In this document: positions 2,743 through 61,490 of the stretch, piece after piece
Layout of the letters: each line of letters starts with the position of its first letter
How positions within the stretch are numbered: the stretch's first letter is position 1
From: a virus
IMG/VR virus record: IMGVR_UViG_3300049434_000014
Span: 89,456 to 153,455 of that record
DNA: 64,000 bases
Direction: 5' to 3' (one strand)
Program-made: the position numbers and the translations under genes
The notes under the pieces: generated by a model
Seen by the model: the letters and a program-made list of their open reading frames with translations, nothing else
Databases searched by the model: none
Told to the model about the DNA's origin: nothing

Positions 2743-3217
2743 GACTGGTCATGTCCACTCTCGGTGACTCGCTACGTTACACTGCAGATCGACTACTCAA
2801 TTCTGTTCAGGCCCGTTCGATTCATTTGACAACCCGGCACAGGCCCTCTCGCATCCATGCGACAATGCGAGTCTTGTCTCCCCCTGGCCCATGCCGACTG
2901 TCCGTCTCGCCTCCGTATCCCATCCTTTCCGTTCTGTGCCGACGAGCCAGCTCGATCCGGGTCTCTCCCACCCACCGACTAGTCTCTGCGGATCCTCCCG
3001 GGTCAGGTGACTCTGCCGATCTAGTCCCAGCGCATCATCTCGTGTCCGACTATCCGTATCCGTGCTTGTCGTTTCCAATCGACCAGTCAGTCCCGGTCAG
3101 TTCGTGCCTTGTTCCGACAGATCGCTGCTGTTCGTTTCCCGTCAGTGCGACGGACCGAGACTGTTCGCCTCCAATCAGTTCGACTACTCGACACAAGTCA
3201 CCCCAAGGCCGACGAAC
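2743..3217 (+). repeat. Pentamer-phased GAC-(NNNYC)n array 1 (~13 units), candidate ncRNA/guide array
   Basis: e.g. gac agatc gctgc tgttc gtttc ccgtc agtgc | gac ggacc gagac tgttc gcctc caatc agttc | gac tactc gacac aagtc. Confidence 0.9.
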
Positions 3218-4403: not shown

Positions 4404-4906
4404 GACTACACTACTCCGATCCTTTCATGTCGTTGGCGAATCGTTCCCGTCCCGACTATTCGCCGCATGTCCCTTCGTGTCTTGCCAAGTCGACTATTCG
4501 TTTCGATCCCGGCCATTTCGTTTTGACTATTCGCATCGGATCCAGCTCCTATCGATTCGACTGATCTTGTCGACTACGCAAGTCAGTTCCGTTCTTTGCA
4601 TTGCGACTTGTCGAGCCTGTCCGTGTCCGCGCGTATCGACTACCCGATCCAGTTCCGTCCTTTCCCGCTCTTTCCGACTACGCTCGTCTCATCCGGGCAT
4701 GTCATCTCGACTACTCGATTCTTTCTCGTCGCTGCGGCTCTGTTCGACTACCCGGTTCGATACGGGACATCCCTGTCCGTTCTGACTACCCGTCTCCGTT
4801 CGCTTCTAGCCCAGTCCGTCTCGACAACCCATGTCGCGGCACTGCTCTTCTTTCCGTGACGACAGGCCAGTTCCAGTCTGTTCGTCTCTGTACGACATCA
4901 CACATC
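4404..4906 (+). repeat. Pentamer-phased GAC-(NNNYC)n array 2 (~14 units)
   Basis: gac tattc gccgc atgtc ccttc gtgtc ttgcc aagtc | gac tattc gtttc gatcc cggcc atttc gtttt | ... | gac aggcc agttc cagtc tgttc gtctc tgtac. Confidence 0.9.
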
Positions 4907-6009: not shown

Positions 6010-6080
6010 GGCTTCATAGACTAATGGCAGGTCACTAGCCTCTCAAGCTAGGAGTACGGGTTCGACCCCCGTTGGAGCTA
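6010..6080 (+). tRNA. tRNA-Glu(CTC)
   Basis: Acceptor ggcttca/tggagct; anticodon arm ctagc-ctCTCaa-gctag; T arm ggttcga. Confidence 0.85.
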
Positions 6081-6092
6081 CGTTTGTATTAA

Positions 6093-6162
6093 CGTTCCGT
6101 GGTGTAGGGATAGCACGCCGGTCACGGGACCGGTAGTCCACGTTTAACTCGTGGCGGAACGA
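6093..6162 (+). tRNA. Aberrant tRNA-like element (6-nt anticodon loop)
   Basis: Acceptor cgttccg/cggaacg; arm ccggt-cacggg-accgg; T loop tttaact. Confidence 0.5.
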
Positions 6163-6209
6163 CGCACGGCCTAGGATCGCCTCTGCTTCGGGCATGCGCC
6201 TAGGTCTCT

Positions 6210-6283
6210 CGGGATGTAGGGAAGCCAGGTATCCCACCTGTTTTGGGTACAGGAAGCCGCAGGTTCGAATCCTGCCGTCCCGA
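6210..6283 (+). tRNA. tRNA-Pro(TGG)
   Basis: cgggatg/cgtcccg; cctgt-ttTGGgt-acagg; ggttcgaatcc. Confidence 0.9.
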
Positions 6284-6285
6284 CT

Positions 6286-6360
6286 GGATGGATGTAGCTC
6301 AATGATAGAGCCCTTGGATTAACGTCTAAGGAGACGTGGGTTTGATTCCCGCCACCATCC
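6286..6360 (+). tRNA. Aberrant tRNA-like element (anticodon unclear, TAA or AAC)
   Basis: tagctcaatgatagagc D arm; bulged acceptor; cttgga-ttaacg-tctaag arm; gtttgatt T loop. Confidence 0.55.
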
Positions 6361-6365
6361 TTCAT

Positions 6366-6439
6366 GGTGAATGTAGCTCAAATGGCAGAGCGCCTGATTG
6401 TGGGTCAGGTCGTTGCGGGTTCGATTCCCGTCGTTCACC
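6366..6439 (+). tRNA. tRNA-His(GTG)
   Basis: G-1 and C73 present; cctga-ttGTGgg-tcagg. Confidence 0.9.
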
Positions 6440-6523
6440 CCGAGAGGGACGGAGTCCAAAGCACATATGGTACCTGTTGCTAGGACTTAAACGACAATGT
6501 TATGTGTGTCCGTCCTTCTCCTA

Positions 6524-6595
6524 TCCTCGTTAGCTCAAAGGCAGAGCGTGCGATTGTTAATCGCAGGGTTGTTGGTTCAAGTCCAGCACGGGGAG
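6524..6595 (+). tRNA. tRNA-Asn(GTT)
   Basis: tcctcgt/acgggga; tgcga-ttGTTaa-tcgca. Confidence 0.9.
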
Positions 6596-7043
6596 CGTTT
6601 GTTTATGGGTGTGACAGGATTGTGACAGTGGAGCCCGCTGAGCGGCACTGTTGAGGGTTCGAGTCCCTCCACTTCCACGAGATGGGCAGTCGTTGTCGCT
6701 TGCTTCTTTAGCTACGGTAATCACCCCGATGGAGCGAGTGACCCTTCACGCGAGGTCGGTTGGAGGCTGACAACCTGACGACAATTGGTGGGCTTGTCAC
6801 TCACCTACCTATCTCTGCTCGAACCACTTTGTTGGCGGGTTCGCTACCCGTACGGAGTGCCGGTTTGATCCAGATAGGCTCTAAGCCGAGGTGTGGGTGC
6901 GACCCCGCTAGCCCTCGGTGCCCCGAGGATCCCTTGCCAGAGAGGAACCGGATACGGATCTGGTGTTCGAGTAGTCGAGATGGACAGGGTCTGTGTGAAT
7001 AACGCAGCTTCAACGACACTGTGGTGTGCCTGTCCTTCTCCAA

Positions 7044-7114
7044 GGTGGAATGACCGAGCGGCTAGGTAGCGGTCTGCAAAACCGCGCACGCGGGTTCGAT
7101 TCCCGCTTCCGCCT
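7044..7114 (+). tRNA. tRNA-Cys(GCA)
   Basis: ggtggaa/ttccgcc; gcggt-ctGCAaa-accgc; U73. Confidence 0.9.
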
Positions 7115-7132
7115 CGTTGGGTAGGATATGTC

Positions 7133-7528
7133 ATGACTGAAACACTGGTAACGGCGCTTCTGAGGAACAAGCCAGGGAAGTGGGCGCACGTCCTTCACGA
7201 GGACTCGGTAGCTCCTAACATTCCCTCCCATCATCTGATGGATCTTGCGTGTGACGTGAATCTGGGCAATGATGAGTGGGCTCCTGCGGGTGCGTTTTCG
7301 GCAGTGATTCGGGATGCTTCGGATCTGTATGTTCGATTCAATTCAGATAAACCTGATGTCACTGAAGTTGTGGTGTCGTACCGTGCGTCGTTGAAGTACG
7401 GTAATTGCTTTGATTGCGGCCTTCCGGGTGCGCAGTATCTGTTGGTCGACGTGGGTGTGATGAACTGTCCGCTGTGTGCGGCTGAGGCTGCGGTAGCGGG
7501 CGCTCAGGTGACTAGGTTGGAGCGTTAG
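7133..7528 (+). CDS. Hypothetical protein with C-terminal Zn finger
   Basis: CFDC..CPLC; GGGTAGGAT 5 nt before ATG. Confidence 0.6.
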   Translation: MTETLVTALLRNKPGKWAHVLHEDSVAPNIPSHHLMDLACDVNLGNDEWAPAGAFSAVIRDASDLYVRFNSDKPDVTEVVVSYRASLKYGNCFDCGLPGAQYLLVDVGVMNCPLCAAEAAVAGAQVTRLER

Positions 7529-7537
7529 TTTGTTCGT

Positions 7538-7610
7538 GGGTCGTTAGTTTAACTGGTAAAACAGGAGCCTCCAAAACTCCACGATGTGGGTTCGATTCCT
7601 GCACGGCCCG
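7538..7610 (+). tRNA. tRNA-Trp(CCA)
   Basis: gggtcgt/acggccc; ggagc-ctCCAaa-actcc. Confidence 0.85.
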
Positions 7611-7775
7611 CTTATGAATGGGTAGGATGTGACATGTGGCAACGTGAGGATATGGCGAGGTTCCTTATTTGGCTTGACGATCAGGGTTTGCTTAATCCTC
7701 CCGTTGAGATCGAGATTGATGAGATCCTCGATTTTTATGAGGATTATACAGGCGTTTTTACCTCAAGGAGTAGAG

Positions 7776-8069
7776 ATGGCTGAGTCTCAGATTTTCGAAG
7801 AGCACACTGTTCGATACCCCGAGTGCGATAAGCTGCACCGTGTATCTGGCGATGTCTCGACGCTGCATGAGTTTCTGGAGTGGCTGGCTGAGAATGGCCT
7901 GCAGGTGTGCAGCCTTGAGGAGACTGGGAAGTTTGACTGTGATGGTCCGGTCGAGCATTACTTCCCAATCCGCGAGCAGCGAGAAGCTTTGGTGCAGCGG
8001 TTCTTTTCGATTGATCCAGCCAAGCTGGAGAGCGAGCGCAGGGCTATGCTTGCTGCACTGCAGAGTTGA
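7776..8069 (+). CDS. Hypothetical protein
   Basis: aaggag SD, ATG 7776. Confidence 0.65.
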   Translation: MAESQIFEEHTVRYPECDKLHRVSGDVSTLHEFLEWLAENGLQVCSLEETGKFDCDGPVEHYFPIREQREALVQRFFSIDPAKLESERRAMLAALQS

Positions 8070-8079
8070 TTGAAGACAT

Positions 8080-8161
8080 TACCCCGTCGTCTATTTTGGC
8101 AGGACGCTGTGCGGTGGTCGCTCCCCGTGCGGAGGTGCACGTTCGACTCGTGCCGGGGTAG
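8080..8161 (+). tRNA. tRNA-like element with extended anticodon arm
   Basis: taccccg/cggggta acceptor, normal D and T arms, ~26-nt anticodon arm. Confidence 0.55.
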
Positions 8162-8276
8162 CTGGAGGATAGATGTTAGCTAACGTTGTTGGTACGTTAC
8201 TTGGGTTGATGCTTTTTCTGTTGGTGATCGTGTCACTTGTGATGCTAGTTCTGTCGTTTGCTCGTGATTGATCCCT

Positions 8277-8349
8277 GCACCGGTAGCTCAGGGGATAGAG
8301 TGTCTGATTACGGATCAGAATGTCGCAGGTTCGATTCCTGCCCGGTGCG
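8277..8349 (+). tRNA. tRNA-Arg(ACG)
   Basis: gcaccgg/ccggtgc; tctga-ttACGga-tcaga. Confidence 0.9.
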
Positions 8350-14893: not shown

Positions 14894-15457
14894 ATGAGTG
14901 AACCTGTGCTTGATACACGTGATTACAATGCTGAGATGAATGAGCTTATTTCAGAGAAGATTCCTGCTGATGGGGATTTCATTCCTTCGCTGGCTGCGTG
15001 GAGCATCGTCTCAGCTCTCACCGAGACTGATCCTGAGCTTCTCGACGGTTGGCTGCGTTTGCACGCGAAGTCGTTTCTTACGGAGTTGATGCGTGCTCAG
15101 CTTCGTTCTCATCGTGCTCGGGTTCGGTCTAGTGCGAAGGCGACGGCGTTTTCGTCTGCTGCTAAGCGCTTTGAGAAAAACGGTGACCTCGCCGAGCTGG
15201 GCGGGTGGATGAAGATTCGGTATGTAGTCGATGATCAGAGTACGCAGCGTTGTCTTGGCGATATGGATCGTAATGATCTGAATTTCGTTGCTTCACGGTA
15301 TAGTCGGACGGCTCAGACTCTGTTGCTCGAGGAGGCGTTTCATCGCGCGCTAGCATCGCGGGTGGGTAGTCTGAAGGTCAGTGAGGTTTTCACTGAGGAG
15401 CAGATTAGCGCGATGTATCGTAATCTGAGTGGCAATACGCATACTGCTACTGCCTGA
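14894..15457 (+). CDS. Hypothetical helical protein, stop codon overlaps first GAC of array 3
   Basis: 187 aa ORF with gagga SD. Confidence 0.7.
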   Translation: MSEPVLDTRDYNAEMNELISEKIPADGDFIPSLAAWSIVSALTETDPELLDGWLRLHAKSFLTELMRAQLRSHRARVRSSAKATAFSSAAKRFEKNGDLAELGGWMKIRYVVDDQSTQRCLGDMDRNDLNFVASRYSRTAQTLLLEEAFHRALASRVGSLKVSEVFTEEQISAMYRNLSGNTHTATA

Positions 15458-15793
15458 CTTACCAAGACCAGTCACGGCTCATCCGTTCGATACCGTTCCG
15501 ACATGTCTAGCCTCATCCCGTCAAGTCTTGCCATTGCCGACACGTCTAAGCACGTCTATTCACGTCCGACATTCCAAGGCCAGTCGCGTCGCGTTGGGCC
15601 ATATCGCTTCCTTTCCGACTACGCACTTCTGCCCATAACTATTCACGGCGACTTCCCGTATCAGGCCAAGTCGAGCCGTTTCGACTACACACTTCTCGCC
15701 GCGCCTAGTCGGGACCGACTTCACAAGCCGGATCGTGACAGGTCAGTTCGAGACCGACTGGGCTATCCGAATCGTTTCTCATCCGACAATGTC
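15456..15793 (+). repeat. Pentamer-phased GAC-(NNNYC)n array 3 (9 complete units)
   Basis: gac atgtc tagcc tcatc ccgtc aagtc ttgcc attgc c | gac acgtc taagc acgtc tattc acgtc c | ... | gac ttccc gtatc aggcc aagtc gagcc gtttc. Confidence 0.92.
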
Positions 15794-15804
15794 AGGAGTG
15801 TCTA

Positions 15805-16119
15805 GTGACTATCTCTGCTCAAGAGATTCTTAACTTGCCGATGCAGTCTAACGATGCGCAGGCAGCTACAGTTGGAGAATACTTGGTTGCACTTGTTAGA
15901 GAAGTGTGGAGATTAAATGAGAATTTTAGCGGTAAGAGACCGTTTGGGAACAGTGGATGGCATTACGAGCTTTACGCACCGTTGGTGAGAGCAGGTTTAG
16001 TTGACGGGCTCACTAATGAGGATGGAGAGATTGAAGTTACTGATGGACGCAGGGCTGATGCGTTGATTGATTTGGCCATCTTGGGGCTCTGGAAGCCCAG
16101 CGCGGAGAGCACGCAATAG
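15805..16119 (+). CDS. Hypothetical phage protein
   Basis: aggag SD; FSGKRPFGNSGW motif. Confidence 0.7.
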   Translation: MTISAQEILNLPMQSNDAQAATVGEYLVALVREVWRLNENFSGKRPFGNSGWHYELYAPLVRAGLVDGLTNEDGEIEVTDGRRADALIDLAILGLWKPSAESTQ

Positions 16120-16772: not shown

Positions 16773-17531
16773 GTGACGGTTTCTACTTCGGCTCCTGTCA
16801 GTGTGTTTGCAAAGTACCGTGATGTCACGTGGCCTTATAGGTATGAGGGCACTCTGCACATCGATACCATTGCTGGAGGCATTCCTTCTGACGAGAAGGT
16901 TGCTGAGGCATGGTTACGTACGAAGTTGGAGAACAAAGACGACCTCATTCGTGAGGCCGTTGCTGAGACGATGGCCGCTCGCGGTGTCGGTAAGGAAGAG
17001 GCGGCACAGATCGTCGCTTCGATGAAGCACTTCACTGGTTTTAAGCGTGACAGCAATGGGCTATACATCGAAGGTCGTCAGCTGAAAGCGGCGATCAAGG
17101 AAGCGGCGATGATTGCTGTCGCCGCTGAGCGGATTCCCCTGCGCGGGTGGGGTGTTACCTCGAAGTACCTTAAGGGTTTCGTCGCGGAACACATCATGGT
17201 TGTCGATGACATCTTGTACTTGAAGGTGGACGGCACTCCTGCAAAGGAAGCTACTGGAATCACTCAGCAGTTCGTTCACACCCAGTACGGTTCGGCTCCG
17301 CACTACAAGGAGTTCGTGTCCGGTGCTACCATTGATTTCACGGTGATTACGGACTTCTTCTTCACCGAGGAGCATTGGATGCACATCTGGGCTACGGGTG
17401 AGCAGGAAGGGATCGGTGCCTCGCGCTCTGGCGGGTTCGGTCGCTACGTGGTTACTCGGTGGAATTTGGTGACTTCCCCACCAAAGAAGAAGGCTCCTGC
17501 CAAGGAGAAGGAAGCGGCTGCAGTTAGGTAG
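16773..17531 (+). CDS. Solitary RAMP-superfamily (Cas7/Csm3-like) RNA-binding protein
   Basis: aggagg SD; LYIEGRQLKAAIKEA matches the RAMP IPGSSxKGxxR motif; C-terminal G-rich loop GIGASRSGGFGRY; N-terminal strand YEGTLHI. Confidence 0.8.
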   Translation: MTVSTSAPVSVFAKYRDVTWPYRYEGTLHIDTIAGGIPSDEKVAEAWLRTKLENKDDLIREAVAETMAARGVGKEEAAQIVASMKHFTGFKRDSNGLYIEGRQLKAAIKEAAMIAVAAERIPLRGWGVTSKYLKGFVAEHIMVVDDILYLKVDGTPAKEATGITQQFVHTQYGSAPHYKEFVSGATIDFTVITDFFFTEEHWMHIWATGEQEGIGASRSGGFGRYVVTRWNLVTSPPKKKAPAKEKEAAAVR

Positions 17532-17564
17532 TGGTCTGGCGGCGCGTCTGGGTACGATGGCAGA

Positions 17565-17862
17565 GACAAGCCAAGCCGCATCCAGACGCGCCACCGCGCT
17601 TCGACTATTCGTGTCAGATCTATCCATCTCCTTCGACCAGCCGTGTCGCGATCATGTCGCTTCCTAGTCCTTTCGACCTGTCGCTACGTTGCGCTTCTTG
17701 GCATATCCACACCGACCATGCGCGCCGCGACCTTACAAATCCTCTCGCCCTGACGAGTCTCCACGCGGCTCTACAATACTCATCATTCTGACAAGTCTTC
17801 ACGCGGCTCTACAATACTCATCATTCTGACTAGCCAAACCGGTACATACCATTTCGCACGAC
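17565..17862 (+). repeat. Pentamer-phased GAC-(NNNYC)n array 4 (8 units), directly downstream of the RAMP gene
   Basis: gac aagcc aagcc gcatc cagac gcgcc accgc gcttc | gac tattc gtgtc agatc tatcc atctc cttc | ... | gac ctgtc gctac gttgc gcttc ttggc atatc cacac c. Confidence 0.92.
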
Positions 17863-17871
17863 TGAGGACTA

Positions 17872-55944: not shown

Positions 55945-58900
55945 GACTAGTCGAGTGCACTCCCCATCCCTTCTCGTCTCGCGACTAGTCGAGTTCCCGT
56001 CCCGGCACCTCCTGTCGTATCGACTAGTCGCTTACCGTCTCGTCAAGTCAGATCCGTATGACTAGCCGAACCCGTACCGTCCTCGCCGTTTCCAGACCGA
56101 CATGTCTATGCCCTGCTGAGCAGCTCGTGTCTGTCCGACTGTTCTGTCTCGACTTGTCGAGTCGGATCCTCCCGTTCCCGACAAGTCGACTCGGGTCGAT
56201 GCGGTCGACTGTTTTTATGACAAGTCGATACCGTCCAGGTCAGATCAGGTCGACCATTCTCACGACAAGCCGAGATTGTGCCGGGTCCGTCCGGGTCGAC
56301 AAGCCACGTCTTTACCAGTCTTCTCCGTTCGACAGGTCGAGTCATAGCGATTCGTGCGACTCTACTGTTTCGATTCTGCTGTCTCGACTGTATCCTCACG
56401 ACAAGCCGACTCGGGCTCACGTCCCGCCAATATGACTTATCAGTTCGACTGATCAACGCGACAAGTCAAGTCCCCTCGGGTCCATTCGTGTCATTGCGTT
56501 TCGACAAGTCAAGTCGCACCGAGTCTAGTCACGGTGACTATGCTATGCGGGTCAGTACCGTCCCAGACAATTCTGTTCTGTCGACCACGCTATCCGGGTC
56601 AGGGCTAAGCCAAGCGACCGCGCTTGCCTGTTCGTTCCATTTCATTCGACTTCTCACTTACGACTTCTCATGTCTGGGCACGTCATCTCGAGAGACAATC
56701 CAAGTCTGAACACAACAGCTCGACTCAGAAGACAACTCAAGTCACGCCTTGCCCAGTCATCCCCGTGCGACTACTCCTGTCACTGCGAACCAACCCGGTC
56801 CTTACGACTATTCCTTGCATAGCGAAGCACATCGTTTCCTTCTGACTTTGCACTCAGACCATACAGAACGACTTCTCTGTTCGAGACAGTTCGCGGCGAT
56901 TCCTTTCGACTGTTCCCTTTCCTGACAGAGCCAGTCATTTCAATTCACTGCCTTCCCGACGAGTCAGATCCGTTCGCGTCCGGGTCCTGTCTTCTCGTTT
57001 CGACCTGTCCGATCAAATCTGGGCCTGACGGTTCTGTACCGACTCTTTCAACATGACTATTTCAAACAGACTGTTCCAGCCAGGTCAATACGGCGCTCCC
57101 CGACTTATCAGTACGACAAGTCAACTCAAGGCAATGCAGCTCCTCCCCGTTTCCGACTGGCCCAGTCAGGTCAATACAGGGCTCTCTGACGGTTCTGTTC
57201 CGACAAGCCAGCTCACGACAAGTCAAAGCAAGTCAGTTCGGGTCCGTTCGTTTCGACAAGTCCTCTCAGGTCTGATCTCTCCGACAAGCCAGCTCACTGC
57301 GGATCCGTTCGTTTCGACTATTCGGGTGTGGTCACGTCAATGCGGATCGGTATGACTAATCGACTCCTGTCCGATCAGCTCTCTGCCGACTTGCCTTGTC
57401 CAACCCGACTCAGTGCAAGCGACTTGTCCTGACGCGGCGTGTCAGTCCAGCATCGACTATTCTGGTCCTGACGGCCCCGATCATGTCGCCTCGACTTCCC
57501 CTCCCACGCCGGGTCACCTCCCTTCTTTCGACAGTTCGGATCCAGTCACTTCCCATACACTTCGACATGTCCTATCCGTTCGAGTCAGATTCAGATCCTT
57601 ACCGACTACTCCTGTCAGTTTCGATACCGTTCAATCCAAGTCAGTGCGACTACGCATGTCGCGGCGAGTCATTTCCGGGTCAGCTCCGACTCTACGAACC
57701 CGACTGGTCGCGTCTGATCCTTGGCCCTTCCGTTCTTTCCCGACTGGTCAAGACAAGTCCTTTCCCGTCTGTTGACAGGTCAGATCCAGTCATGTCCCTT
57801 CATTGCGACGAGTCTCCGCACTTCGGGTCTGCACGTTCCGACGAGTCTACGCAATTCGATCCCGTACATTTTCGACTGGTCGCATCTGGTCTATGCCATT
57901 TCACGTCGACTAGTCGCACCTGCCCGCTACCTTTCCACGTCGACTGGCCAAGCCGTTGCGGTGACACGTCATTTCAGATCGCCTTCTGCCCCGACACTGC
58001 GAGTCACGTCACTGTCTCTGCGGGCCAGTTCTGATCACTTCGACTATTCGACACGAGCCTTACCGAGTCTGTTCGACTAGACGATCCGTTACCAGTCGCT
58101 ACGACTATATGTTCACGACTATCCGATGCGATCCTTAGCTGATCTAGTCGCTCTGACTACTCGATTCGTTTCGTGTTCTATCCCGACTATGCGAGTCTTC
58201 TCCCATCGAACCGTTCTGACTACTCGATCCATTTCGACGCCGCTTCGTATCTGCCCCGACTACTCGAGCCAATTCTATTCACGTCGACTCAGATGACTGG
58301 CTTATGACAATACAGCCCGCACCGTTTCCCTGCCTCCCCAATCCATGCAGTCCCGACTGCGCGCATCATCTCCATACCCTTCCACTCCCTACATCACTGA
58401 CTGACCAAGTCGAGACACGTCATTTCATCACCGACTGACCAAGTCGGGTCAACTCCACCTCATCTCCGACTCCACGGACCACTTCCCTTCCGTTCGCCAC
58501 GACTCTTTCGATACGATTCTTTTAATACGATTCTTTTAATACGATTCTTTTAATACGATTCTTTTAATACGACTGTTCAGCTCGCCTTCATTGCCACGAC
58601 CATTCCTTTCCCTTCTGACTGTTCATCTCGGTTCATGTCCGTCCATCTCTAGTCGACTACTCTTGCCGGGTCTGTGCTGCTCCGACTACTCCCGTCAGGC
58701 CCGAGCATTTCGCTTACCGACTACTCCGATCCTCCCACGTCCCATCACCTCGGTACGACTGTTTCGTTGCGACTACTCAGGTCACTCCATTCCCCTTCGA
58801 CTACCGACTGTTCGTGTCACGACATTTCCACCCTTATCAAGACGACTCATCATTACGACACGTCGTGGCGAGGCGACACATTCCGCACACGTCTTTTCCG

Positions 58901-60215
58901 ACACGTCATTATCGAGTCGTCTCGACACCGCTTCCCTTCACGTCCGACTCTACGAATCTACACATTCGACCGACCACTTCGGATCCAGTCATGGCTGCCC
59001 CCTTCCGTTCTCTTCCGACAAGTCGCATCGCGTCCTGTACGCTGTCAAGTCACTGCACATGACTAGTCGGCTTCGTTTCGCTGTCTCCCCGTGTCATTTC
59101 CCGTCCGACAAGCCGCAATCAACACGCGTCCCGTCATACCGAGACGACTGGTCAATATGACAAGCCGCTTTCAACTCGCCTACGCGTCATGCCGACAAGT
59201 CGACACGCTTACCATCCATTGCTCTGCCGACCACCCAAGCCTGCCCCCTGCCGCTGCGCCTCGATGCCGACCAAGCGCTTCTTTGCTGTCCGCGCCCGTT
59301 TCGATACCGACCAGCCGCTTCTTTGCCAGTCCGGGTCAGTTCCTTTCCGACTTGTCCCTGCTGATCAGTACAATCCGAGTCGACAAGCCATGCCAATTCA
59401 AATCACTTCACTGTGACAAGTCACGACGGATCCATTCATTTCTGAGCGACAAGTCACGACGATTCCTCCCACTTCTGGTCGACTGTTTCGGTGCGACTAC
59501 CCGTGTCCCTGCATGTCTTGTCAAGTCTTGTCAATGCCGACTATTCGGGTCATGTCTGCGCGCGTCGACAACACCACTCAAGTCCACCGCAGTCGATTCT
59601 ATTCCGACAAGTCAGGTCAAAGCGGGTCAGCTCTCACCGTTACCGACAAGTCAGATCAGGTCGAGTCAGTTCCTATCAATGCGACAAGTCGCATCCCATC
59701 CGTGCGGGTCTGCTCGCCTGCTGACAAGTCACGTCGCTTCCCCTCGCCACGACTCGTCAAATCAAGCCGTGCCATGTCTACTCGTTTCGACAAGCCAGGT
59801 CACAGCAAGTCGGCTCATTGCGACGAGCCAGGTCACGACAAGTCCCCTCCCGTCCGACGAGTCAGAGCCGTACAAGTCCCTTCCTTACCGACTACTCTGG
59901 TCAATACGATTCCAGTCCTGTCGACAAGTCAGATCAGAACGCGCCACCTCATTTCAGCCCGACAAGCCTAATCGGGTCCTGCCATTTCGGTTCAGTGCGA
60001 CTACTCGTCTCGTGTCCCTTCCTGTCATTGCGCTCCCCGTCCGACAAGTCATTTCCGCGTCGACCCAACGCGCTGCGACATGTCAAGTCGGGTGCGCGTC
60101 ATGGCTCTGCACTTCCCTTCCGACTACTCCCGACAAGACCCGTCTGGCCGGTTTCGAGCCGGATCTCTGCGAGCCAATCCGACTGCTCCGTTCGTGACAT
60201 GCCGTTGACGTCTTC
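55945..60215 (+). repeat. Large pentamer-phased GAC-(NNNYC)n array 5 (~4.3 kb, roughly 110-130 units estimated from unit length)
   Basis: gac aagtc aagtc ccctc gggtc cattc gtgtc attgc gtttc | gac aagtc aagtc gcacc gagtc tagtc acggt | gac tatgc tatgc gggtc agtac cgtcc; no credible CDS. Confidence 0.93.
58511..58570 (+). repeat. Perfect tandem repeat (atacgattctttta) x4.3 inside array 5
   Basis: Directly visible. Confidence 0.95.
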
Positions 60216-60453: not shown

Positions 60454-60807
60454 ATGGGGCGGGGATCTGTTGTGGGGAGTCTGTTGGCGCTTCATCGTCG
60501 GGCTGAAGGCTCCACAGAGCGAGTGAAACGACAATGGTTGGTTTGTAACTCTCCTGATTTATATCATGTTCCGAATACTCCGTGTGCGGCTCGTGATTGT
60601 AAGACGTGTGGTGAGCAGGTTTGGGTTCCGATGTTGTTTCTACCGTTGGTGGAGTCTGGGGAGTTGTCTCCGGTGTGCTGGCCGTGTCATGATGCGACGG
60701 GTCGGCGGGTGGGGATGCATCGGTTAGAAGAGCCCATCATCAAGTCGATGGGTAAGATGGGTGAAGCACAGGAACTTCTCGATTACCTGAATTCTCATCT
60801 CGACTGA
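60454..60807 (+). CDS. Zn-finger hypothetical protein (start uncertain)
   Basis: CKTC..CWPC. Confidence 0.55.
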   Translation: MGRGSVVGSLLALHRRAEGSTERVKRQWLVCNSPDLYHVPNTPCAARDCKTCGEQVWVPMLFLPLVESGELSPVCWPCHDATGRRVGMHRLEEPIIKSMGKMGEAQELLDYLNSHLD

Positions 60808-61490
60808 TTTATTACGACTGATTTACTACGACTGATCTAATCGTGTCCCATCGTTACGTTTCGACTGGCCGATTCTGTTCCCGACTGAGCTAGTCGCGTT
60901 CGCTCATATCAGTTCCCTTCCGACTATTCATTCGCTTCAGCGCATCTCGGTCCATACGACAAGTCCGCTCGCGGCTACTCGTGTCGAGTGACATGCCATG
61001 TCAAGTCCTTACGTTTCTTTTCGACGTGTCAAGCCAATACCTCACAGCTCCCGTCTTAAGACTCGGCTGGGCGACCCAGATCTCATCACGTCATTGCGAC
61101 CAGTCGAGCCAACCCCTGTTCGCGTCTATGTGACCAGCCGCTTCGAGCCAGCTCGCGAACGCTTCCCGTCAGTACCGACTCACCTGCTCAAGCCCATTCG
61201 GTTTCCGGCCCGACTAGCCTCGTCGCCTCTTGCCCTTTCTGTTCGACTTGTCTCCGCTCCCCCACTCATCTCCTGGCCGACTACTCACCTCGTGCCCATC
61301 CGGGTCCCCCCGTTTCGCGGCGACTACTCAAGACAGCACACGATCTCGTCTATCCGCTTCGACTACTCCAATCCGCTCAATTGCGTCTTGCCAGATCACA
61401 TCCGACTACCCATAGCCATATCGAGTCTTGTCTCGGCGACTCCGACTACCCGATCCGTCGCACTTCTTTTCATCCCTGTTCGACTGTCCT
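60802..61490 (+). repeat. Pentamer-phased GAC-(NNNYC)n array 6 (~18 units)
   Basis: gac tgatc taatc gtgtc ccatc gttac gtttc | ... | gac tactc acctc gtgcc catcc gggtc ccccc gtttc gcggc | gac tactc aagac agcac acgatc tcgtc tatcc gcttc. Confidence 0.9.

What the first reader, a model, noticed from the sequence alone, without database searches (positions are those of the whole stretch)
17752..17827. Recent whole-unit duplication defines the unit and suggests how arrays grow
Seen: gacgagtctccacgcggctctacaatactcatcattct followed by gacaagtcttcacgcggctctacaatactcatcattct. These 38-nt copies (GAC plus 7 pentamers) differ at two positions, both in the variable first or second base of a pentamer. Inference: guides diversify by duplication and point mutation rather than Cas1-type acquisition, and the YC positions are constrained.
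Basis: partly seen in the sequence, partly recalled or inferred. Interest (0 to 1): 0.72.

Follow-up and report, generated by a model that had tools for sequence, protein, structure and literature searches.

The report
Duplicated guide unit in phage VIPR array
Two adjacent 38-base copies are a freshly duplicated guide unit in an actinophage's VIPR-type (CRISPR-related, Cas1-free) guide array; relatives suggest that young copies change first at the two 'code' letters of each five-base repeat, one way such phages could make new guides.

Summary
Positions 17752-17789 and 17790-17827 are tandem 38-nt copies (GAC plus 7 pentamers) that differ at two bases, the first and the second letter of a pentamer.

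The array lies just downstream of a 252-aa gene with a Cas7/RAMP fold. It belongs to a VIPR-type system, a kind published in 2026 preprints, which this scan has already met in over 100 other genomes.

- **Family.** In 54 of 56 related loci the same GAC-anchored, C-phased array sits directly upstream of that gene on its sense strand.
- **Targeting rule.** With pentamer letters 1-2 as code, the published 1-nt-skip rule gives 94 perfect hits against 10 for shuffled units. Three guides spell conserved motifs of rival vipr genes.
- **Age.** The closest relative has one copy of the unit, so the duplication is recent. Each copy carries one derived change.
- **Substitution pattern.** Between orthologous units changes fall at letters 3-4 (69 of 90), while letters 1-2 and the C at 5 are conserved. 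In three young duplicates 4 of 5 differences hit letters 1-2.

Duplication plus point mutation is therefore a real route to new guides, without Cas1, but it is not shown to be the main one. The transcribed strand and the targets of this window's units remain unknown.

The parts
17752..17789 (+). Copy 1 of the duplicated unit (GAC + 7 pentamers). It carries a derived G at 17755 (pentamer 1, letter 1).
   Evidence: Polarity comes from the single-copy orthologue in L003.
17790..17827 (+). Copy 2 of the duplicated unit. It carries a derived T at 17799 (pentamer 2, letter 2).
17565..17871 (+). Array of 8 units between the Vipr-like gene and the clamp-loader gene. Unit 17635 has two 1-nt insertions that break the phase relative to L003.
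   Evidence: Parse. Orthologous array in L003 with whole-unit indels of 33, 40 and about 38 nt.
16773..17531 (+). Vipr-like stand-alone RAMP (Cas7-fold) gene, 252 aa.
   Evidence: AF2 model pLDDT 77. Foldseek top 70 hits are all Csm3/Cas7. VIA Z 9.9 to Csm3. More than 900 homologues. Motifs align with the SUSP1 Vipr.
14894..15457 (+). Conserved 187-aa neighbour, the candidate accessory (vap-like) gene.
   Evidence: Homologue upstream on the same strand in 41 of 44 loci with enough flank. No fold or family match.
15456..15807 (+). Array of about 10 units directly after the vap-like gene.
   Evidence: Syntenic arrays in L005, L006, L011 and L012.
55945..60207 (+). 4.3-kb array of over 100 units with the same grammar. 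It includes older tandem duplicates (for example 59415/59448 and 57874/57908).
60802..61490 (+). Further array with the same grammar.
2766..3211 (+). Further array with the same grammar.
4404..4894 (+). Further array with the same grammar.
17552..17560 (+). GGGTACGAT, a possible -10-like element 5 nt before the first GAC of the array. It is conserved in L003. This is an inference only.
   Evidence: Sequence. The generic promoter scan was not run on this stretch.

Best explanation
The two 38-nt copies are neighbouring guide units of a VIPR-type system. Such a system has a stand-alone Cas7-like RAMP protein (16773-17531), a conserved partner gene (14894-15457) and arrays of pentamer-built guide RNAs. 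Each pentamer has two code letters (1-2), a loosely constrained letter 3, a pyrimidine at 4 and a near-invariant C at 5. A (C)GAC anchor punctuates the units. By analogy with published VIPR, one protein protomer would hold each scaffold triplet, and the code letters would pair with double-stranded DNA while skipping every third target base. That rule is shown here in silico for relatives of this system, not for this window. The pair arose by a recent tandem duplication of one whole unit in this phage's lineage. Since then each copy has acquired one change in a code letter, so the copies should now read targets that differ in two codons (inferred). Arrays of this family change by whole-unit gain, loss and duplication plus point mutation, with no Cas1. 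In retained guides selection keeps the code letters while letters 3-4 drift.
For: The duplication is real and unique in the genome.

The closest relative, L003 (91% aa identity in the RAMP gene), has a single copy. Both local copies share 7 differences from it, and each has one private change at a code letter. The arrays differ by whole-unit indels.

The RAMP fold is supported by Foldseek E 1.3e-5 with all of the top 70 hits being Cas7/Csm3, and by VIA Z 9.9 (rmsd 4.3, 159 aligned).

Linkage of gene and array: 54 of 56 loci have arrays within 700 nt upstream on the sense strand, with 624 chains against 1 on the antisense strand. The partner gene is conserved in 41 of 44 loci.

Code and rule: 553 units searched against 575 kb gave perfect hits of 10, 94, 13 and 14 for skips of 0, 1, 2 and 3 nt, against 8-10 for shuffled units. 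The excess comes from three guides of 8-11 pentamers. They match conserved motifs (HTFRGTGIQYE, GINQRFVH, PTDPKVAE) of 20, 16 and 43 other loci's vipr genes, with the skipped base at the wobble position and no site in their own gene.

Orthologous units (15 pairs, 117 pentamers) differ at letters 1-5 by 7, 7, 27, 42 and 7 changes (chi-square p 1.5e-11). Four-fold sites of the gene differ by 0.15-0.31.

Young duplicates in three lineages (own, L009, L079) have 4 of 5 differences at letters 1-2. This gives p 0.0026 against the orthologue spectrum.

In this genome adjacent units are more alike than distant ones (0.379 vs 0.316, p 4.5e-6), and the excess lies in the code letters (0.378 vs 0.303, p 0.005).

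There is no Cas1 in the complete genome.

Published model: bioRxiv 10.64898/2026.04.26.720920 and .720927.
Against: No target was found for any unit of this window. Against the fetched loci the hits equal the shuffled controls.

The skip-rule signal rests on three guides from other loci.

The young-duplicate tally is tiny: 5 differences, and only p 0.087 against a uniform null.

Orthologue pairs are partly non-independent, because the same unit is compared among four related loci.

Across the family most neighbouring units are unrelated. Code identity of at least 0.6 occurs in 4.1% of adjacent pairs against 1.4% of distant pairs, so duplication explains only a visible minority of units.

The scaffold is not GGY on the gene-sense strand, and there is no structured tail.

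Sequence similarity to the SUSP1 Vipr is weak (hhalign E 0.099).

Expression, strand and processing are untested.
Confidence: 0.7

Rival explanations
1. The duplication is a neutral replication-slippage event in a repetitive region. The two differences fell on letters 1-2 by chance, and duplication plays no real part in making new guides. New units come mainly from recombination or cassette exchange between phages, or from an unknown acquisition route.
For: Two hits on letters 1-2 have a chance of about 0.14-0.16 on their own. Four metagenomic variants with identical RAMP genes (L020-L023) differ by replacement of whole units and are mosaics of each other. Most units have no detectable paralogue (mean identity 0.317 vs null 0.312; family-wide adjacent 0.297 vs far 0.285, p 0.14). 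Partial-unit slippage repeats of 14 nt exist in the large array.
Against: Recent whole-unit or two-unit duplications recur in three independent lineages. Their differences avoid letters 3-4, which are the fastest between orthologues (p 0.0026). Similar neighbours are enriched (Fisher p 0.008; p 4.5e-6 in this genome).
Confidence: 0.25
2. The arrays are not guides. They are periodic protein-binding RNA or DNA, for example Rho-loading YC tracts, polar recognition sequences for the phage's TraB/FtsK-like translocase, primase sites (NNGTC) or iterons. Unit duplication would then simply add binding sites.
For: The + strand is C-rich and G-poor, lies on the sense strand and has no RNA structure beyond shuffles (z -0.8 and -0.6). 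Many pentamers end in GTC, and GAC-NN-GTC is palindrome-like.
Against: None of these accounts for three results: the tight linkage to a Cas7-fold gene in 54 of 56 loci; conserved letters 1-2 beside drifting letters 3-4; and the skip-1-only, codon-phased perfect matches to rival vipr genes.
Confidence: 0.04

Closest known systems
Type II VIPR of Escherichia phage SUSP1 (Vipr + vap1 + four vrRNAs; bioRxiv 10.64898/2026.04.26.720920 and .720927)
   Same: It is phage-encoded, with a small stand-alone RAMP carrying a G-loop and a partner gene. Guide RNAs are built of tandem pentamers with three scaffold letters and two code letters. Targets follow the 1-nt-skip rule with the skip at the wobble position. 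Guides aim at rival VIPR genes, there is no Cas1, and no self-targets are found.
   Different: Here the scaffold on the gene-sense strand is S-Y-C, not G-G-Y. In SUSP1 the GGY repeats lie on the vipr-sense strand. The SUSP1 G-loop residues that hold the two guanines, D177 and W178, align with A and S here (weak alignment). Units have 4-11 pentamers (mode 6-7) rather than 9-16. There is a 5' (C)GAC anchor instead of a structured 3' tail. About 185 units lie in 7 arrays, one of 4.3 kb, rather than 4 vrRNAs. The partner gene is unrelated to vap1.
Other VIPR types with NNNGG / YNNNG / NNNNG repeats and 'staggered' arrays (same preprint, methods and fig. S18 legend)
   Same: Read on the antisense strand, these units are NNNNG (this phage) or NNNGG (high-GC relatives). 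They abut one another without spacers or tails, as described for staggered arrays.
   Different: The preprint text gives no taxa, strands or sequences for these types, so I cannot tell whether this actinophage clade is among its seven types. It does not discuss how vrRNAs arise.
CRISPR-Cas class 1 backbone (Csm3/Cas7 filament on crRNA)
   Same: The best structural matches of the 252-aa protein are Csm3/Cas7. In both, the RNA is held periodically, one protomer per repeat step.
   Different: The period is 5 nt, not 6. There is no repeat-spacer array, no Cas1/Cas2 and no other cas gene seen nearby. Here new guides arise by duplication and mutation, not by spacer acquisition.

Membership tests
VIPR system | Stand-alone RAMP protein (RRM core, glycine-rich loop, thumb hairpin) outside a CRISPR locus | tested here: met
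   AF2 model. Foldseek best E 1.3e-5, and all 70 hits below 1e-3 are Csm3/Cas7. VIA-align Z 9.9, rmsd 4.3, 159 aligned, with the top ~22 rows all RAMPs. The conserved GIGASRSxGFGRY loop is seen.
VIPR system | Sequence homology to a published Vipr | tested here: inconclusive
   hhalign of the family profile against the SUSP1 Vipr gives E 0.099 over 129 columns, with the helix-1 and G-loop motifs aligned.
VIPR system | Tandem pentanucleotide repeats next to the vipr gene, with scaffold letters conserved and two letters hypervariable | tested here: met
   54 of 56 loci have the arrays. Across 659 units, letters 1-2 are near-uniform, letter 4 is Y in 84% and letter 5 is C in 96-99%.
VIPR system | GGY scaffold on the RNA strand | tested here: not met
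   The gene-sense strand reads S-Y-C and the antisense strand G-R-S. In SUSP1 GGY lies on the gene-sense strand. The preprint allows a 'related consensus'.
VIPR system | Targets follow the 1-nt-skip rule, with the skip at the codon wobble position | tested here: met
   Met for the protein family: 94 perfect hits at skip 1 against 10-14 at other skips and 8-10 for shuffled units, all codon-phased. Not shown for this window's own units.
VIPR system | Conserved structured 3' tail capping each vrRNA | tested here: not met
   Only a roughly 10-nt anchor (CC-GAC-TACCC consensus) is conserved. Folding is no better than shuffles. There is no Rfam family in the arrays.
VIPR system | Adjacent accessory (vap) gene | tested here: inconclusive
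   A conserved ~185-aa gene lies upstream in 41 of 44 loci. It has no similarity to SUSP1 vap1 and no fold match, so a DNA-binding role is unsupported.
VIPR system | No self-targeting | tested here: met
   Own units against the own genome at skip 1 give 3 perfect 6-pentamer hits against 2 for shuffled units.
VIPR system | vrRNAs are expressed and co-purify with Vipr | not testable with these tools
   This needs small-RNA sequencing and a pull-down.
CRISPR-Cas | Repeat-spacer array and Cas1 adaptation gene | tested here: not met
   No Cas1 in the complete 153-kb genome, while the control rang in 7 of 14 genomes. Units share no repeat beyond the anchor and the phase.

The most novel reading that the evidence does not exclude
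This actinophage clade is a distinct VIPR type. Its guide scaffold is S-Y-C with a 5' GAC anchor, read on the gene-sense strand. Each genome holds well over a hundred short guides. New guides are born by whole-unit tandem duplication followed by selected changes in the code letters, a Cas1-free, mutation-driven way of updating an RNA-guided repertoire.
Probability: 0.35. Interest if true: 0.75.

Novelty: new variant of a known kind. Interest (0 to 1): 0.6.

Why it matters
VIPR preprints describe how the guides read DNA but not how a phage obtains new ones without Cas1. This pair is polarised by a single-copy relative, and the contrast between orthologues and young duplicates gives a testable answer: copy a unit, then mutate its code letters. 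The conservation of letters 1-2 beside drifting letters 3-4 is also independent, purely evolutionary evidence for which letters carry the information. It extends the 1-nt-skip rule to a clade with a different scaffold and very large arrays. If the scaffold really is S-Y-C, the protein-RNA recognition code of this protein family is itself variable.

Tried and rejected
- **No close relatives in the phage collection.** blastn of the region against GenBank phages found nothing. tblastn found only Microbacterium phage Magritte for the clamp loader, whose first 22 kb hold no arrays, and Microcystis phage Mae-JY09 for the RAMP gene.
- **No family names.** Pfam and PHROGs gave nothing for the RAMP gene or its neighbour, and a PDB sequence search gave nothing.
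- **Partner gene.** The fold of the 187-aa protein had no PDB match.
- **Literature.** The first two searches, on 5-nt periodicity and on pentanucleotide repeats, found nothing. The third found the VIPR preprint.
- **Other readings considered and dropped.** These were Rho rut-like YC tracts, T7-primase-like NNGTC sites, TraB/FtsK recognition 8-mers, iterons and a TRAP-like ring. The gene linkage, the substitution pattern and the skip-rule matches ruled them out.
- **Array RNA structure.** Folding is no different from shuffles, and Rfam finds only tRNAs at 6010-8349.
- **Targets of this window's units.** Against the own genome and the fetched loci the hits equal the shuffled controls. Two 9-pentamer units scanned against IMG/VR gave 2 and 1 exact hits, by my rough estimate about what chance would give for 18 specified bases, and their frames are ambiguous. 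The duplicated unit has only 14 code letters, too few for a database-wide scan.
- **Methods that proved unreliable.** Automated global alignment of whole arrays mixes non-homologous units, and low-threshold unit matching picks up chance pairs. Neither was used for the tallies. Four-fold-site estimates involving L102 failed because the frame was ambiguous.

Full report
**1. The observation**

The window is the right-hand 64 kb of a complete 153,455-bp virus record with terminal repeats. At 17752-17789 and 17790-17827 lie two head-to-tail 38-nt copies, each GAC plus seven pentamers. They differ at 17755/17793 (G/A, pentamer 1, letter 1) and at 17761/17799 (C/T, pentamer 2, letter 2).

Among 130 parsed units of this genome this is the only near-identical pair (26/28). 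Units otherwise share nothing beyond position-specific composition (mean identity 0.317 against 0.312 for a composition-matched null).

**2. The grammar**

Non-coding stretches on the + strand consist of units of (C)GAC followed by mostly 6-7 pentamers with C at every fifth base.
- GAC followed by at least 5 such pentamers occurs 126 times on the + strand and 6 times on the - strand.
- C-C spacing is enriched 1.66-fold at lag 5 and 1.42-fold at lag 10, then shifts to 5k+3 because each anchor adds 3 nt.
- About 185 units lie in seven arrays, one of 4.3 kb.
- The arrays have no RNA structure beyond shuffles and no Rfam family.

**3. What it belongs to**

The array holding the pair starts 34 nt after the stop of a 252-aa gene (16773-17531). 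That gene has no Pfam or PHROG name but more than 900 homologues in actinobacterial phages and prophages. Its AlphaFold model (pLDDT 77) matches Cas7 proteins in two independent searches:
- Foldseek: best E 1.3e-5, and all 70 hits below 1e-3 are Csm3 or type VII Cas7.
- VIA-align: Z 9.9, rmsd 4.3, 159 residues aligned, with the top ~22 rows all RAMPs.

A literature search then found the 2026 preprints on VIPR systems. These describe a phage-encoded stand-alone RAMP (Vipr), an accessory gene (vap), and vrRNAs of tandem GGY/NN pentamers. The NN letters pair with DNA while every third target base is skipped.

**4. Family-wide test**

I fetched 90 more loci with a profile of the protein. They include Streptomyces, Nocardiopsis, Streptosporangium and Actinomadura genomes.
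- Of 56 loci with at least 300 bp of upstream flank, 54 have the same GAC-anchored, C-phased array within 700 nt upstream on the gene-sense strand, and none on the antisense strand (624 chains against 1).
- A ~185-aa gene homologous to 14894-15457 lies upstream of the array in 41 of 44 loci.
- Across 659 unique units the consensus is CC-GAC-TACCC, followed by pentamers in which letters 1-2 are near-uniform and letter 3 is weakly biased. Letter 4 is a pyrimidine in 84% of cases, with its C/T ratio following genome G+C (r 0.52). Letter 5 is C in 96-99%.
- A homologue of only 31% identity in the record named Microcystis phage Mae-JY09 is followed by the same grammar.

**5. The code**

I took letters 1-2 as code and searched 553 units against 575 kb of fetched loci plus this genome, with the arrays masked. 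Perfect matches numbered 10, 94, 13 and 14 for skips of 0, 1, 2 and 3 nt, against 8-10 for shuffled units.

The excess at skip 1 comes from three guides of 8 to at least 11 pentamers. They match the most conserved motifs of the Vipr-like genes of 20, 16 and 43 other loci. The code letters fall on codon positions 1-2 and the skipped base on the wobble position. Each guide's own gene lacks the site. This reproduces the published rule and the published remark that some guides target other VIPR systems. It also fixes which letters carry the information.

For the units of this window I found no targets: hits equal the controls. Two IMG/VR scans gave 2 and 1 exact hits, which by my rough estimate is about what chance would give.

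**6. Age and polarity of the duplication**

The closest relative is L003 (91% aa identity; four-fold-site divergence 0.30). It has the orthologous array with a single copy of this unit.
- Both local copies share seven differences from the L003 copy.
- At each of the two sites where the local copies differ, one copy keeps the L003 state.

So the duplication post-dates most of the split, and each copy has gained one change. The alternative is old copies homogenised by gene conversion.

The two arrays also differ by whole-unit indels of 33, 40 and about 38 nt. There is no Cas1 in the genome.

**7. Where substitutions fall**

In 15 orthologous unit pairs (80-99% identical, 117 pentamers) from loci whose genes are at least 85% identical, differences at letters 1-5 number 7, 7, 27, 42 and 7 (chi-square p 1.5e-11). 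Of the 42 changes at letter 4, 28 are C/T.
- When I collapse these by hand into variable columns per unit family and add own-L003 and L005/L011/L012, the picture is the same: roughly 9, 8, 32, 43 and 6.
- Letters 3-4 change at or above the four-fold rate of the neighbouring gene (0.15-0.31). Letters 1-2 change several-fold more slowly. The pairs are partly non-independent.

Young within-locus duplicates show the opposite pattern. The three pairs of at least 93% identity are own 17752/17790, L009 9785/9819 and L079 30/91. They carry 5 differences, 4 of them at letters 1-2 and none at letter 4. This gives p 0.0026 against the orthologue spectrum and 0.087 against a uniform null. The second unit of the L079 two-unit block adds more changes at letters 1-2, but its end is ambiguous.

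**8. How much of array growth is duplication**

- In this genome adjacent units are more alike than distant ones (0.379 against 0.316, p 4.5e-6). The excess lies in the code letters, not in letters 3-4.
- Family-wide the effect is small. Only 4.1% of adjacent pairs against 1.4% of distant pairs reach 0.6 code identity (Fisher p 0.008).
- Four metagenomic variants with identical RAMP genes differ by unit replacement and are mosaics.

Duplication is therefore a demonstrated route, not a demonstrated main route.

**9. Open point: the strand**

- In SUSP1 the GGY repeats lie on the vipr-sense strand. Here that strand reads S-Y-C.
- For sense transcription: arrays run from the stop of the partner gene to the ribosome-binding site of the RAMP gene, leaving no room for an antisense promoter. 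-10-like elements precede arrays in this phage, L003 and L006. The SUSP1 residues that hold the two guanines (D177, W178) align with A and S here (weak alignment).
- For antisense transcription: the antisense strand reads NNNNG or NNNGG, which the preprint lists as variants. The reverse complement of the anchor consensus, GGGTAGTC, also resembles the start of the SUSP1 tails, GGGTAGTTAGTC.

I put sense at about 60%.

**10. Verdict**

It needs correcting on which letters are free. The kind of system is already published and has been met repeatedly by this scan. New here are the evolutionary evidence on guide birth and on the code letters, and the unusual architecture of this clade.

Noticed in passing
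L051:59, L054:216, L059:237 (metagenome loci): [quoted passage not shown] Their own genes lack the site. In two of the loci the guide is the unit nearest the gene start.
   Followed up: yes
L016 (Escherichia phage SUSP1) 27500-29500 vs unit anchors in the window: The reverse complement of this family's anchor consensus (GGGTAGTC) matches the first 7 bases of the SUSP1 vrRNA tail (GGGTAGTTAGTC). This could mean a shared handle and antisense transcription here, or it could be coincidence.
   Followed up: partly
L020-L023 (four metagenomic variants, identical RAMP gene): Arrays of about 24 units are mostly identical, but a few units are replaced or carry clustered changes, and the variants are mosaics of each other. 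One inserted unit is a paralogue of a unit two positions away.
   Followed up: partly
window 17635-17674: This unit has two single-base insertions relative to the perfectly phased L003 orthologue, so its phase is broken twice. It may be a decaying guide.
   Followed up: partly
window 58499-58572 and 60801-60836: Short tandem repeats of 14 nt (5.3 and 2.6 copies) lie inside the arrays. They are partial-unit slippage products rather than whole-unit duplications.
   Followed up: no
window 17545-17587: An inverted repeat CGTCTGG...CCAGACG encloses the -10-like GGGTACGAT and the first unit of the array. It is conserved in L003.
   Followed up: no
L014 (PP395641.1, Microcystis phage Mae-JY09) 4745-5140: A 31%-identical homologue of the RAMP gene is followed by a GC-rich array with the same CGACTACCC anchors and then a strong hairpin. 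The sequence looks actinophage-like for a record assigned to a cyanobacterial host.
   Followed up: partly
window 6010-8349: A cluster of eight tRNA genes on the + strand lies between arrays.
   Followed up: no
window 17531-17791, 59091-60197 and others: Long open frames cross the arrays (86 to 368 aa). In a relative a gene caller called such a frame as a 148-aa protein (L006 10848-11294). These are probably artefacts of stop-poor, C-rich sequence.
   Followed up: partly
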